64,000 nucleotides of DNA from Emiliania huxleyi CCMP1516 (taxonomy: Eukaryota), in the NCBI RefSeq assembly GCF_000372725.1, contig NW_005201360.1, positions 332,881 to 396,880 on the forward strand. Direction: 5' to 3'. Below are positions 16 to 47,698 of this stretch, one piece after another. The notes beneath the pieces were generated by a model, which saw only the letters and a program-made list of their open reading frames with translations, was not told the origin of the DNA and ran no database searches. How positions within the stretch are numbered: the stretch's first letter is position 1; every line of letters starts with the position of its first letter. Both the position numbers and the translations under genes were made by a program.

Positions 16-2824
16 GAGACGATCCCGCTGATGGACGACGTGCTCCAGTCCGTCAAGGACGAGCGCTGGCCCGACGCCGACCCCGTCAAGATCCAGACCC
101 GCCCCTTCAACCTGATCAAGGAGAACCGGCTGCGCGACCTCGACCCGTCCGACATCGACCGGCTCGTCTCCATCAAGGGGATGGTGACGCGGACGTCGCA
201 GATCATCCCCGACCTGACCCTCGCCGTGTTCGAGTGCGGCGTCTGCGGCGCCGCGCAAGACGTGCAGGTCGAGCATCACCGCGTCGTCGAGCCCGACGTC
301 TGCCACAACCAGTCGTGCCAGGCGCCGCGGCCACACACGTCCTCCTCTCCCGCCCGCTGCCCCTCTCCCCCGCCCAAGTTTGGGCCAACGTCCCCCCCCC
401 CCCCCTCCCCCGCGCGCACAGGCCAAGGGCGCGATGCGCGTGATGCACAACCGCTCCCTCTACATCGACAAGCAGATCATCCGGCTGCAAGAGGCGCCAG
501 AGCACATGCCGCAGGGCGAGACGCCGCAGACGGTCTCGATGTGCACGTGGGCTCGGCTGGTGGACGTCTGCAAGCCGGGCGACCGAGTGGAGGTCACCGG
601 CGTGTACCGCGCCTCGCCGGTCCGCTCGAACCCGCGCCACCGCTCGGCGAGCTCCACCTGCAGGGCGTGCCTCGCAGCCTTCCAGGAGCCGTCTCGGAGC
701 CGTCTCGGAGTCGTCTCGCCTTAGGTGCGCTCCATCTACAAGACGTACGTCGACATCGTGCACGTGCGCAAGATCGACAAGGGGAAGCGGCTGCAGCAGG
801 AGGCGCCGACGGCCGCCGCGACCTCGACCCCTCCCCTCGGCGCAATCGCGCGTAACCGCGGCTCCTCTCGACAGGCGGAGCCAACTGTCGCGACCGCCGC
901 CGGCGAGGCGCGGGCCGGCGAGGCGCGCGAGGAGTACCACGAGGGCAACGAGCTGGACGCGGTGTCGGACGCGCGCGTGGCGGAGCTCAAGGCTGGCCGA
1001 GACGTCGACCACTAGCCACTTGCCTCGGAGCCTTCTCGGAGCTTTCTCGGAGCCCCGTCTGCAGGCGCTGGCCGAGACGCCGACCCTCTACGAGGACCTG
1101 GCGCAGTCGCTCGCGCCGTCGGTGTGGGAGCTGGACGACATCAAGAAGGGCATCCTGCTGCAGCTCTTCGGTGCCTCGCACAAGGTGATCGACAAGGAGT
1201 CGTCGGGCGGCTCGGCGCGCAAGCGCGGCGACGTCAACGTTCTGCTCGTCGGAGACCCGGGCACCGCTAAGTCGCAGCTGCTGCAGTACGTGCACAAGGC
1301 GCGGGGGGCACGGCAAGCTGCGACCCGACGCTGCGCCTCCCCGGAGCCCTGCGGAGCTCGCCCGTAGGTCGCGCCGCGCGGCATCTACACTTCGGGCAAG
1401 GGCTCGTCGGCGGTCGGCCTGACGGCGTACGTGACAAAGGACCCCGAGACCAAGCAGTTTGTGCTCGAGTCGGGGGCGCTCGTGCTGTCGGACCACGGCG
1501 TCTGCTGCATCGACGAGTTCGACAAGATGTCGGACGGCGCGCGCTCCATCCTGCACGAGGCGATGGAGCAGCAGACGGTCTCGGTCGCAAAGGCGTCGCG
1601 CCGCCGGCTCGACGCCGCGCGCGAAACGCGCGAGTCAGCCGGAGGTTGCGCCCGAGAGTAGGCGGGCATCATCTGCTCGCTCAACGCGCGCACGTCCGTC
1701 CTCGCCGCCGCCAACCCGATCAACTCCAAGTACGACCCGAAGCGATCCGTCGTCGACAACATCAACTTGCCGCCCTCGCTGCTCTCGCGCTTCGACCTGA
1801 TTTACCTCGTGCTCGACAAGGCGAGATTCGCCGAGATGCGCAGAGATTCGCCGAGATGCGCAGAGACTCGCCGAGATGCGCAGAGACTCGCCGAGATGCG
1901 CAGAGACTCGCCGAGATGCGCCGCGACTCGCCGAGATTACTTTGCGCCCGCGCCCTCTCTGCAACCGTCTCCGCACCGTCTCCGAGACCCGTCTCCCACC
2001 CTTCGCCACCAGGTGAACGAGTCGACCGACAAGCGGCTCGCTGAGCACATCGTCCAGCTCTACCAGCTCGACCGCACGCCCGCGCACGCCGTCGTGCCGC
2101 AGCGCACGCTGATGGACTACATCTCGTACGCGCGGCGCGAGGTGCATCCGAAGATCTCGGACGAGGCCGCGCAAGAGCTGATCCGCGCGTACTTGGCGAT
2201 GCGCAACATGTCGGGCAACAAGAACGTCATCTCGGCGACGCCGCGCCAGCTCGAGGGCCTCGTCCGCCTCTCGGAGGCGCGCCAACGACACCGCCCCCGC
2301 ACACACACCCCGCACACACCCCTCGCACACACCCCTCGCGCACACCCCTCCGCCACTTGGCCCGCCCTCCCGCCGCCCTCTCCTGCCGCCGGTCGCCCTC
2401 TCGCCCGCCCCCCCCCCACCGCCCTCTCACGCCGTCCTCCGCCGCCGCTCTCTCCCGCCAGGCGCACGCGCGCATGCGGCTGCACTCGACGGTGGTGGCG
2501 GAGGACGTCCTCGAGGCCGAGCGGCTGATGAAGACGTCGATGCAGTCGGCGGCGATGGACCCGACCACGGGCACCATCGACATGGACCTCATCGCCACCG
2601 GCCGCTCCGCCGCGGACCGCAACGCCGCGAAGATGCTCGCCGCCGCGCTTAAGGACCGCTTCCTCGCCATGTCGGCGCAGACCATCTCGCTGCAGGAGCT
2701 GCAGCAGTCGGCGCAGGAGGACACCGGCGTCGAGGTCTCCATCACCGTGCTGCGCGAGGCGCTTGCTATCCTCGGCCGCGAGGGGCTGGTGTCCGTCAGC
2801 CGCAACCAGGTCACCGTCCACTGA
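16..2824 (+). CDS. MCM4: DNA replication licensing factor MCM4 (multi-exon; 5' part lies outside the window)
   Basis: Spliced translation gives the zinc finger CGVC...CHNQSC, Walker [10 protein letters not shown], Walker B IDEFDKM, arginine finger [24 protein letters not shown] and C-terminal [15 protein letters not shown]. Introns at about 323-421, 647-724, 992-1064, 1299-1367, 1593-1661, 1821-2012 and 2277-2461, with GC donors. Confidence 0.93.
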
Positions 2825-3335
2825 GCGCCACCGCGCGCGCGGCCGCCGCTAGTGTTTGAATCGAGGGTGTGTAGATGTGGTGGGGGGTGGGCGGAGAGAG
2901 GGGAGGGGGGGCAGCATGTGAGTACACGCGCGTCGGCCGCGCCGGAGTGCCACCACGCGCGAACGCGCGCTGGAGTCCTCCTGGCGCCGCTCTTTATCGT
3001 TCACAGGTCGCGTTTTCGGCTTTTGCGTTTTGGACGACCCACCAGGAACGGCCACGAGCACGACGGTGTCGCACGAGCCGACGACCCGCACACGGCACAC
3101 ACCCCCGACCCCTTAGAGCCCGACCCCCCTTGAGTGCTGTGTGCTGTGAGACGCTGCTGAAGTGGTCTGAGCGGAATGCTGTCGCTGGCCGCCGCTCTGC
3201 TGTCCACCAGCGAGCCATGGCCCGCGGAGCGACGGCCCGCGCGAACGATAGTCGATACAGTCAGCGTCACGCCGGAAGGGAAAAGGCCGGAGATTGGGCT
3301 GCTTGGAAAAGAAGAGTTTGAGCAAAAATGTAAAA

Positions 3336-3795
3336 TTATTGGTTAGTTGCTAAATATTTAGAGATGCGCTGCGCATCCTGCATCCAAATCACCTCACGCT
3401 CTGCTGCATACTGCCGGTAACGGTTCTCCCTAGTGTCATATGCATAGCCCTTGCCCCTGATCTCGCCATAGTCCTTGTAGAGTCCGGTGAGAGCTGGCAT
3501 TGCATATTTCATGAGCGAAGCCGGGCAGGTGTCAGTGCACTGCACGATGACGGGCTGACACGACGTGGGGCAGATCGCAGCCCCCTCTTGGCCGCAGCAG
3601 ATATCGTGCGTGCGAGCACATGCATCAATGCAGTCGACCGGTGTCACGCTGGAGGCTGGTAGTCGCACATGGGCCCTTCTGGTACAGCTCGGCCGCCCCA
3701 CACCAGTTCGGGCCCACATAATTGCCGTACAAAGCGAGCAGCTCGCGCCTTTCAGGAGTCGGCAGAGCGAGGGCCGCGAAGACCGCCTGCAGCAT
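3336..3795 (-). pseudogene. Frameshifted secretory phospholipase A2-like gene
   Basis: The ATG at 3795 reads MLQAVFAALALP...LYGNYVGPNWCG (Ca-loop-like). The catalytic-like PVDCIDACARTHDICC lies in a different frame. Confidence 0.6.
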
Positions 3796-46580: not shown

Positions 46581-46609
46581 GCTCAGCTCGAGTGGCGCTG
46601 ATCTGCACT

Positions 46610-47698
46610 CATCCCCCAGCGTCCCTCCGCCGCACAGATACAGCAGCCCGCGCTCTTCGGCGGCGCGACGGCTCAGCCGGCGCAACAGGCGGCTGGCGAG
46701 GGGTGGCGTGTAGCGAGAGGGAGCATGAGAGGGGCCGTGGAGAGGAGTCGAGGCGGGTGCGGCGCCGCCGCACCTCGAGCAGCGCGCAGCACCATCACAT
46801 CTCTCCGTATCTCCCCATATCTCCCCATATCTCGCCGCACCTCGAGCAGCGCGCAGCACGTGACGGGCGTCAGCTCGACGCCGCCCTCGCCGAGGCGGAC
46901 GTCGGCTGGGAAGAAGGCGAGGCGGTCTGACTCCCACCCCTCCGCCGCCCCCTGCTCGTAGGCGGCCCGCACGGCCGCGGCGTCGAGCGTCGTCCGTGTG
47001 ACGAAGAGAAGGTCCGGCTTGCCCACGCACCCGTGCTCGTCGGCCGCCGCCATGCAGCCGATGCAGCGAGGGGGGAGCAGCGCGGCGCGCGGCACGTTGG
47101 TCTCCTCGTGCGTCTCCTGCGTCACAGAGTCGAAGAGCTCCTCGACGGCCAGCCGCGCGGCCGCCTCTGCCGCTGCGGCGCAGTCCGGCTCCTCCTCGAC
47201 ACGGGCGCGCGACGGCTCGGGATGTCCGCTCGGACCGTTGAAGAGCCCTCCGTGCGTCGCCACCGCCGACGAGCGACGGAGCAGGGCGATCTGTCCGTCG
47301 GCCGTGACGAGGACCGTCTCGCACCCGAGCGCGTTCGAGAGGAAGGCGCCTGCGTCGCCGTGCAGCCGCTCGCCGTCGGCGGCCAGACGCAGCCGCTGCT
47401 CGCGTGGTGCCTGGTTGGTGCCGAGGTACTCTTTGTAACCCGTCATGCCGAGGCGCAGCACGAGGCGCGCGCCGTCGCCCTCGTCGGCACACGCCAACGC
47501 TGCCAGCCTGAATTTGCTACCGTCAAAGAGCCTTCCGTTGGACTCGAGGGCCGCGCGCCAGGAGGCATCGATCGCGTCCTGCGGGTGTGGCAGGCGGCGG
47601 AAGCGCCGGTCCAGCTCGACTCGCACGCGCCCGAGCGGAGTGCCACCCACGTCGGGCGAGGACCAGAGGAGGACGTGGGAGCGTCGACGCCGGAGCAT
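46610..47698 (-). CDS. NUDT22: NUDT22-like Nudix hydrolase (UDP-sugar pyrophosphatase family)
   Basis: LFDGSKFRL, LGMTGYKEYLGTN, LSNALG...TADG..LLRRS, PSGHPEP and ELFDSVTQETHEETNV. 3' end uncertain. Confidence 0.85.

What the first reader, a model, noticed from the sequence alone, without database searches (positions are those of the whole stretch)
647..46859. Introns built from duplicated exon junctions plus a microsatellite: candidate intron-generating system
Seen in at least 8 introns or insertions in 6 unrelated genes: the insert contains a direct copy of the flanking exon junction, usually followed by a short tandem repeat. Cases: MCM4 647-674 vs 725-752 (20/28 identical by hand); MCM4 992-1010 vs 1067-1085; GT54 11610 vs 11678; ICT1 30622 vs 30787; kinase 41512-41551 vs 41604-41643 and 42332-42359 vs 42394-42421; methyltransferase 46087-46117 vs 46013-46048; NUDT22 46766-46792 vs 46833-46859. 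Copies range from perfect to decayed, implying an ongoing process. Established: tandem duplication of an AG|GY site is a proposed route to intron gain, and this lineage is known for GC donors and intronic 10-11-mers. Inference: donors are inherited from exon sequence, which would explain the excess of GC donors. Possible mechanisms are staggered-break repair with repeat filler or mRNA-templated overwriting of intron ends.
Basis: partly seen in the sequence, partly recalled or inferred. Interest (0 to 1): 0.88.

Follow-up and report, generated by a model that had tools for sequence, protein, structure and literature searches.

The report
Duplicate-and-fill intron birth in coccolithophore
In the bloom-forming alga Emiliania huxleyi many introns start with a copy of the neighbouring exon, often beside a short tandem repeat, and one such insert is missing from other samples' DNA, so new introns are likely still being made by a repair process that duplicates a splice-like site and fills the gap with repeats.

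Summary
Largely confirmed. The organism is Emiliania (Gephyrocapsa) huxleyi. The five youngest inserts are a 16-40 bp direct duplication around a tandem 10-11-mer filler, and all five duplications contain AG|GY. One insert (kinase 42332-42393) is cleanly absent from three other DNA records. Another (41547-41638) is found both spliced out and retained in two haplotypes. The eight MCM4 introns are spliced, all phase 0, and absent from a related haptophyte and 18 other MCM4 loci.

Corrections: the cases lie in five genes, not six. Two near-perfect cases, plus a likely third, duplicate the donor of an existing intron, which is remodelling rather than gain. ICT1 is weak alone. Three GC donors face exonic GT. 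mRNA templating fits poorly.

Best model (inferred, 0.5): staggered-break repair that copies repeats from existing introns. This is a new variant of tandem-duplication intron gain, not a classic introner. The scan noted a similar footprint in another haptophyte. The enzyme is unknown, and splicing of the polymorphic insert was not shown.

The parts
322..421 (+). MCM4 intron 1, GC-AG, phase 0; no detectable exon copy
   Evidence: RNA contig joint, threading to P0002
647..724 (+). MCM4 intron 2: decayed copy of downstream exon start (647-674 vs 725-752, 20/28) plus 11-mer TCTCGG-type filler ending at the acceptor; GC donor facing exonic GT
803..874 (+). MCM4 intron 3, phase 0, start weakly like downstream exon (rank 4 of 26)
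992..1064 (+). MCM4 intron 4: 18/19 copy of downstream exon start plus 11-mer filler; the intronic copy carries a further substitution in other haplotypes
1299..1367 (+). MCM4 intron 5, phase 0, degenerate 11-mer filler, GC donor facing exonic GT
1593..1661 (+). MCM4 intron 6, phase 0
1821..2012 (+). MCM4 intron 7: GAGAT-type 10-mer array begins 2 nt after the donor; array length differs by 20 nt in locus L009
2277..2461 (+). MCM4 intron 8, phase 0, C-rich
   Evidence: RNA contig joint
11438..11569 (+).
   Evidence: reading-frame continuity only
11610..11677 (+). Predicted intron whose start is a gapped, decayed copy of the downstream exon; no tandem filler
   Evidence: rank 1 of 26
21152..21254 (-).
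26041..26129 (-). 15-bp perfect copy of downstream-exon sequence inside a predicted intron (acceptor-side remodelling, inferred by eye)
30622..31224 (+). ICT1-like gene, four predicted introns (30622-30786, 30884-30954, 31011-31081, 31133-31224), all followed by GY; own-exon ranks 6, 1, 11, 4 of 26
   Evidence: RF-1 hit on exon 1, below cut-off
41512..41643 (+). Kinase K1: 40-bp duplication (39/40) around an 11-mer filler; intron 41547-41638 with both splice sites from the duplication and a GAG acceptor; spliced and retained forms on record
41805..42013 (+). Kinase K2: 16/16 duplication of an existing exon|intron donor around a 177-nt filler that aligns over 100 nt with intron K4; host intron 41813-42142
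42332..42421 (+). Kinase K3: 28/28 duplication containing CAG|GC around a 34-nt 11-mer filler; 62-bp insert absent from other DNA; predicted new intron 42350-42411
   Evidence: joint 42331->42394 in X6, X7; P0143
42686..42795 (+). Kinase intron K4: non-repeat head plus GAGAT 10-mer array; candidate template or sister of the K2 filler
42858..42929 (+). Kinase intron K5, start weakly like downstream exon (rank 3 of 26)
43026..43201 (+). Kinase intron K6, GAGAT array 8 nt after the donor
45800..45964 (-).
46013..46117 (-). Methyltransferase region: predicted intron 46117-46049 = copy of downstream exon start (26/27 plus a short deletion) and a 14-mer filler that supplies the acceptor; present in X6 and X7
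46562..46859 (-). NUDT22-like region: 27/27 duplication of exon end plus donor around a 10-mer filler, at the 5' end of predicted intron 46840-46562
   Evidence: (RNA piece X15 rec 16 stops at 46839)

Best explanation
These inserts are 16-40 bp duplications of gene sequence around a tandem-repeat filler, likely made when a staggered DNA break at or near an AG|GY site is repaired by synthesis that copies an existing intronic repeat array. Shown: the duplication-filler-duplication anatomy; AG|GY inside all five youngest duplications; an intron-free allele; removal of K1 from transcripts; absence of the MCM4 introns in other lineages; decay of the intronic copy. Inferred: a broken 3' end primes on an array in another intron (sometimes a neighbour, as K4 for K2) through a few bases of microhomology, slips to add units, and rejoins upstream of the break so that the target is doubled. 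If the doubled stretch holds an exonic AG|GY, the spliceosome takes GY from the first copy and AG from the second copy or the filler, and a new intron results with no change in the protein. If the stretch spans an existing donor, the intron is only lengthened. The intronic copy then decays, leaving introns that start like their downstream exon, have GC or GT donors matching it, and sit mostly in phase 0.
For: Five of five youngest duplications contain AG|GY, and each ends 5-10 nt after the junction. K3 empty site has one copy of the 28-mer in DNA runs X6 and X7 and in genomic read-through protein P0143, which keeps K2, K4, K5 and K6. K1 is retained (256-aa form) and spliced (574-633 aa forms) in each of two haplotypes. 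24 of 26 downstream exons start GY against 0.18 background; donor matches exon, p=3.5e-4; intron 5' end/own exon p=0.0011 in 18 uncited introns. 13 of 14 MCM4 and kinase introns are phase 0, and all 20 AG|GY sites in the MCM4 coding sequence are phase 0. P0005, P0006 and P0141 (80% identical MCM4; P0006 on a 19-kb contig) read through all 8 positions and carry one in-frame insert elsewhere. None of the 8 positions was found in 18 interrupted MCM4-like loci. K2 and NUDT22 duplications include intron bases, so the template was unspliced. The K2 filler aligns over 100 nt, non-repeat head included, with intron K4 870 bp away. Young fillers are not copied from the 300 nt beside the target except where a neighbouring array lies there.
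Against: No enzyme or break was observed. Sharing of fillers within a gene is not above chance overall (10 of 56 same-gene pairs vs 30 of 269 others, p=0.13). The K3-containing allele was seen only in the window, its splicing was not shown, and a deletion between the repeats would give the same empty site. Older introns keep only the 5' copy (3' side p=0.72 among uncited introns), a geometry unlike the young class, so two birth modes or uneven decay must be assumed. Only about 12 of 26 introns have a clear filler (by eye), and two RNA-backed introns (5510-5569, 6854-6749) have no GY exon start. Three GC donors face exonic GT. Outgroup MCM4 loci are mostly intron-poor, positions 3 and 4 were unscorable in several, and the metagenome scan read 6 of 64 parts. 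Ten of the 26 introns rest on reading-frame continuity only.
Confidence: 0.5

Rival explanations
1. The fillers are very short non-autonomous mobile elements (a low-complexity introner, or the bare 3' tandem tail of a non-LTR retroelement) inserted by an element-encoded nuclease or reverse transcriptase that makes long, variable target duplications.
For: Variable 16-40 bp duplications and tandem tails fit target-primed reverse transcription (recalled). Two filler families recur across unlinked genes (M2/M4/K3; M7/GT54/K2/K4/K6). K2 and K4 share a non-repeat head. Hundreds of contigs from elsewhere in the genome pile on the arrays. An earlier scan note (e1-2577349, unchecked) reported a mobile family with a 15-bp footprint in another haptophyte.
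Against: The unit differs from locus to locus, and there is no end-to-end similarity except K2/K4. Orientation is strongly tied to the gene (GAGAT 34 vs ATCTC 1 on the sense strand of 26 introns). No 10/11-mer array was found between genes (TRF rows past 50 kb were hidden). No parent element was found, but the genome was not available.
Confidence: 0.25
2. Plain local tandem duplications arise at random, selection keeps those spanning AG|GY, and microsatellites grow inside them afterwards.
For: Tandem duplication of an AG|GT stretch can make a working intron (PMC3265369, abstract and opening text). Selection alone explains the GY and phase-0 bias. Array lengths vary between haplotypes.
Against: The K3 insert has a perfect 28-bp duplication with a filler of an existing family, and no filler-free duplicate was seen. 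GAGAT arrays start 2-22 nt after the donor in 7 of 7 introns, and TCGGA-type arrays end 10-23 nt before the acceptor in 5 of 5.
Confidence: 0.12
3. Old introns have their ends overwritten by partial copying from spliced mRNA or cDNA, so the resemblance is remodelling and not gain.
For: It predicts the older class exactly: intron start = downstream exon start, with no upstream copy.
Against: An intron-free allele exists at K3. K2 and NUDT22 duplications contain intron bases that mRNA lacks. The MCM4 positions are not ancient in the loci examined.
Confidence: 0.1
4. The perfect cases are assembly errors at repeats.
For: The window has N gaps and poor stretches, and the K3-containing allele has no second record.
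Against: K1, K2, 46013 and 46766 are present in independent DNA runs. K1 is in 11 contigs as the window's exact 256-aa protein. MCM4 introns 2-8 are in L009.
Confidence: 0.03

Closest known systems
Intron gain by tandem genomic duplication of an AG|GT site (Rogers model; Hellsten et al. 2011, PMC3265369, abstract and opening text seen)
   Same: Donor and acceptor are taken from a duplicated exonic AG|GY, the intron resembles the flanking exons, and the protein is unchanged.
   Different: Described there as very rare, single cases. Here it is recurrent within one 64-kb window and still segregating, uses GC donors, has short duplications brought to intron size by a repeat filler, and also hits existing donors.
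Introners / introner-like elements of Aureococcus, Symbiodinium, Polarella and Chrysochromulina (Roy et al. bioRxiv 10.1101/2020.10.14.339549, parts 1-2 of 4 read; Gozashti et al. 2022, PMC9860276, passages)
   Same: Splice sites recruited from target duplications, GY at the downstream exon start, phase-0 bias predicted by the recruited motif, and drift towards GC donors.
   Different: Those have fixed 3-9 bp duplications, often terminal inverted repeats, and end-to-end family similarity. Here the duplications are 16-40 bp and variable and the bodies are microsatellites. Gozashti 2022 filtered out low-complexity families and its main text has no mention of Emiliania.
Intron gain by double-strand-break repair (Daphnia pulex; as summarised in PMC3488318 and PMC3296678, passages)
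   Same: Presence/absence polymorphism, direct repeats at the ends, filler DNA.
   Different: The repeats there are short and the fillers are not described as shared families. Here the repeats are long, straddle AG|GY, and the fillers are strand-biased tandem families.
Tail-only insertions of non-LTR retroelements with tandem 3' repeats (recalled; not read)
   Same: Variable-length target duplication with a tandem repeat.
   Different: No parent element seen, the unit varies per locus, and all arrays found are intronic and oriented with the gene.

Membership tests
Tandem-duplication intron gain | Duplicated exon stretch contains AG|GY | tested here: met
   5 of 5 youngest duplications; the older class has the copy starting at the GY
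Tandem-duplication intron gain | Insert is spliced out precisely | tested here: met
   K1 and MCM4 introns; not shown for K3, 46117-46049 or the GT54/ICT1 introns
Tandem-duplication intron gain | Intron-free allele or orthologue with a single copy | tested here: met
   K3; MCM4
Tandem-duplication intron gain | Intron consists only of the duplicated sequence | tested here: not met
   34-177 nt fillers lie between the copies
Introner / introner-like element | Many introns alike from end to end | tested here: not met
   Among 325 pairs, only K2/K4 align beyond the repeat unit; one window only
Introner / introner-like element | Short, fixed target duplication (3-9 bp) | tested here: not met
   16, 20, 27, 28 and 40 bp
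Introner / introner-like element | Terminal inverted repeats (in many families) | not tested
   None obvious by eye; no formal scan run
Introner / introner-like element | Splice sites recruited from the target, with matching phase bias | tested here: met
Introner / introner-like element | Autonomous partner element in the genome | not testable with these tools
   No whole genome held
Break-repair intron gain (Daphnia type) | Presence/absence polymorphism with flanking direct repeats | tested here: met
   K3; 1 of the 5 inserts covered
Break-repair intron gain (Daphnia type) | Filler unrelated between loci | tested here: not met
   Two shared filler families
Non-LTR retroelement tail insertion | Variable long target duplication with tandem tail | tested here: met
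Non-LTR retroelement tail insertion | Copies in both orientations and between genes | tested here: not met
   selection could hide them, and the sample is small
Non-LTR retroelement tail insertion | Full-length parent with the same 3' repeat | not testable with these tools

The most novel reading that the evidence does not exclude
Most introns of E. huxleyi were made, and are still being made, by a transposon-free cycle: breaks form preferentially at donor-like AG|GY sites of transcribed genes, repair copies repeat arrays from existing introns (possibly from the gene's own pre-mRNA) and doubles the target, so introns seed new introns. This one process would account for the lineage's GC donors, phase-0 excess and strand-biased intronic 10-11-mers.
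Probability: 0.3. Interest if true: 0.9.

Novelty: new variant of a known kind. Interest (0 to 1): 0.75.

Why it matters
How new spliceosomal introns arise is a long-open question. Mass gain is currently credited to introner transposons, and tandem duplication is known only from rare cases. Here a duplication-based route appears to act repeatedly and to be segregating now in a cultured, widely sequenced alga, in a form that published introner screens filter out as low complexity. Young, intermediate and decayed copies plus empty alleles make the whole path testable: birth, incomplete splicing (K1 retained), decay, and GT-to-GC drift. It also offers one cause for odd features recalled for this genome (GC donors, intronic 10-11-mers) and for its error-prone gene models.

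Tried and rejected
No whole genome was held, so no genome-wide test. Pattern scans for the 10-mer array gave no haptophyte DNA: 8 loci in viral contigs and 77 in prokaryote genomes, judged by record titles and by eye. The MCM4 scan of metagenomes read 6 of 64 parts and returned one same-species allele (L009) and no recognised second haptophyte locus. A homologue search with the methyltransferase exon found nothing. RNA contigs barely covered 41200-47100, so they gave no joint for K1, K3 or 46117-46049; lack of cover is not evidence. Exact look-ups of five reading frames through K3 found none of five, and the representative search returned only K3-free forms. I first read the 21152 duplication as wholly intronic, then dropped that after finding an AG|GT at a predicted exon end inside it. 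Same-gene sharing of fillers as a general rule was rejected (p=0.13). The flank-repeat null is contaminated by arrays that lie next to each other and is not used as evidence. The rank-1 score of MCM4 intron 7 is probably chance, because its start is filler. The E. huxleyi genome paper (Read et al. 2013) was not held; statements on its GC donors and 10-11-mers are recalled, and its supplement could already describe part of this. Ten literature searches listed no paper describing duplicated junctions in this species' introns.
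Full report
Organism and data. No whole genome was held. The kinase at 40791 matches a protein named as Emiliania huxleyi at 100% identity over the aligned part (P0105), so the window is from E. 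(Gephyrocapsa) huxleyi or a very close relative. Evidence came from the window, two read layings, protein searches and one metagenome scan.

The observation. Five cited pairs are near-perfect (39/40, 28/28, 27/27, 26/27, 18/19) and MCM4 647/725 is 20/28. GT54 and ICT1 are weak without gaps. My scan added duplications at 41805/41998 (16/16), 21152/21235 (18/20) and 26041/26115 (15/15).

The intron set. I defined 26 introns. Fourteen came from threading transcript-type proteins P0002 (MCM4, MMETSP) and P0104 (kinase) onto the window, two from RNA joints, and ten from reading-frame continuity alone. RNA contig X13 record 1 joins directly across MCM4 introns 1 and 8. The 194 and 384 record letters between its other pieces equal the exon lengths expected if introns 2-7 are removed (my arithmetic).

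Statistics. The intron end resembles the upstream exon only through the young kinase cases; among uncited introns p=0.72. The downstream exon starts GY in 24 of 26, against 0.18 in MCM4 coding sequence (a general eukaryotic bias at these positions, recalled, would raise the background somewhat). Donor and exon dinucleotides pair as GC/GC 14, GT/GT 7, GC/GT 3, GT/GC 0 (Fisher p=3.5e-4). Thirteen of 14 MCM4 and kinase introns are phase 0, and all 20 AG|GY sites in the MCM4 coding sequence are phase 0.

Is it ongoing? Of five inserts covered, four (41512, 41805, 46013, 46766) are present in DNA runs X6 and X7. One (K3, 62 bp) is absent from both: contigs join 42331 to 42394 with 28 letters fitting either side and 255 letters of flank. 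Protein P0143, a genomic read-through that keeps introns K2, K4, K5 and K6, also lacks K3. The K3-containing allele was found only in the window, and its splicing is not shown. K3 is 62 nt, so unspliced it would shift the frame. The empty site could also arise by deletion between the repeats, but a perfect 28-bp repeat with an even filler is young either way. K1 is a real intron: two haplotypes that differ at three residues upstream each appear as a 256-aa form that stops inside K1 and as a full-length spliced form. The 256-aa form is on record in MMETSP entries too, and K1 uses a GAG acceptor, so its splicing is likely incomplete. In L009, 5 substitutions fall in 681 intron bases against 1 in 1267 exon bases, two of them in the exon-like intron starts.

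Gain or old introns? MCM4 proteins P0005, P0006 and P0141 (80% identical; P0006 on a 19-kb contig) read through all eight positions and carry a single in-frame insert where the window has none. I infer these are genomic calls from a related, unnamed haptophyte. Of 80 loci, I picked the 18 non-self loci with interrupted alignments. All score 68-83% in the MCM4 core, and none shows an intron at the eight positions where these could be scored; the nearest is at residue 570, phase 2, against 574, phase 0. These outgroups are mostly intron-poor and the scan read 6 of 64 parts, so gain is favoured but not dated.

Anatomy. All five youngest duplications (K3, K1, K2, NUDT22, BCCIP) contain AG|GY and end 5-10 nt past the junction. 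In K1 and K3 the site is exonic and a new intron results. In K2 and NUDT22, and likely BCCIP, it is the donor of an existing intron, and the copy includes intron bases. For NUDT22 an RNA piece stops at 46839, two letters past the first donor, as expected if it splices to the exon at 46561 (inferred, the joined letters were not shown). NUDT22-like, methyltransferase and PhyH regions form one 936-aa frame after four introns. Older cases (647, 992, 46117, 11610, 45964) keep a 19-36 nt copy starting at the donor, with the acceptor at the end of the filler where there is one. Fillers fall mainly in two families. GAGAT-type 10/11-mers start 2-22 nt after the donor in 7 of 7 introns; TCGGA-type 11-mers end 10-23 nt before the acceptor in 5 of 5. 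On the sense strand GAGAT occurs 34 times and ATCTC once in 3,043 intron bases (units are not independent). The K2 filler aligns over 100 nt, with its non-repeat head, to intron K4, but same-gene sharing overall is not above chance (p=0.13). About 12 of 26 introns have a clear filler.

Mechanism. I favour staggered-break repair with template switching to an existing intronic array (0.5). It explains an unspliced template, long variable duplications, shared and strand-biased fillers, and the K2/K4 match. The break, the polymerase and any targeting to AG|GY are inferred; selection must supply part of the bias. A low-complexity mobile element or retroelement tail is the main rival (0.25). Duplication followed by later repeat growth (0.12), mRNA overwriting (0.1) and artefact (0.03) fit worse. 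The three GC donors facing exonic GT, with Val kept in all covering homologues at two of them, show that GC donors also arise by later change; Roy et al. report a similar drift towards GC in dinoflagellates.

Comparison with print. Seen: Roy et al. bioRxiv 10.1101/2020.10.14.339549, parts 1-2 of 4; passages of PMC9860276, PMC12130899, PMC11282704, PMC3488318, PMC3296678, PMC10290126, PMC2784329, PMC6142364 and PMC13334186; abstract and opening of PMC3265369. No supplements were read. PMC9860276 removed low-complexity families and does not name Emiliania in its main text; PMC12130899 names no haptophyte in its main text. PMC2784329 notes alleles differing by about 50 nt in intron length in this species. 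Read et al. 2013 was not held, so its remarks on GC donors and intronic 10-11-mers are recalled. Ten searches listed no description of this pattern. An unchecked scan note (e1-2577349) reports a 15-bp footprint around an intron family in another haptophyte, so the footprint may be wider in the group.

Verdict. A real and apparently ongoing process. It works like tandem-duplication intron gain with introner-like recruitment of splice sites, but fails the membership tests for classic introners. New variant of a known kind; interest 0.75.

Noticed in passing
L089-L165 (prokaryote genomes), L001-L008 (viral contigs): Three or more tandem 10-mers with the same core as the algal filler occur in 77 prokaryote and 8 viral loci, by eye mostly between genes, a few beside SOS-box-like promoter motifs (recalled; e.g. 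L121, L123, L128). No control pattern was run, so enrichment is unknown.
   Followed up: no
window 50113-55298: 553-bp direct repeats (99.8%) enclose about 4.1 kb holding 186-bp and 48-bp tandem arrays and a long reading frame; an LTR-like or direct-repeat element of unknown kind.
   Followed up: no
   Followed up: partly
window 41636-41638: Intron K1 ends in GAG rather than YAG, and a retained, truncated 256-aa form is common in the databases.
   Followed up: partly
window 5617-5727: 109 bases downstream of a small gene are replaced by 29 other letters in runs X14, X8 and X9.
   Followed up: no
window 803 (MCM4 intron 3 donor): Protein P0139 lacks one Glu at this junction, suggesting a 3-nt shifted splice site or an allele.
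   Followed up: no
window 31737-32610: Intergenic inverted repeat (187 bp, 85%) carrying 7-mer arrays with a GAGAT core, distinct from the intronic 10/11-mers.
   Followed up: no
window 20940-21110: Long G, T and A runs inside the BCCIP-like gene look like poor-quality sequence and hide the exon structure after the 21152 duplication.
   Followed up: no
window 11753-11803: A 22-mer tandem array with the GAGAT core near the end of the GT54-like gene may mark a third intron.
   Followed up: no
window 7690-9580 (+): Long uninterrupted reading frame that looks by eye like a flavohaemoglobin; not tested.
   Followed up: no
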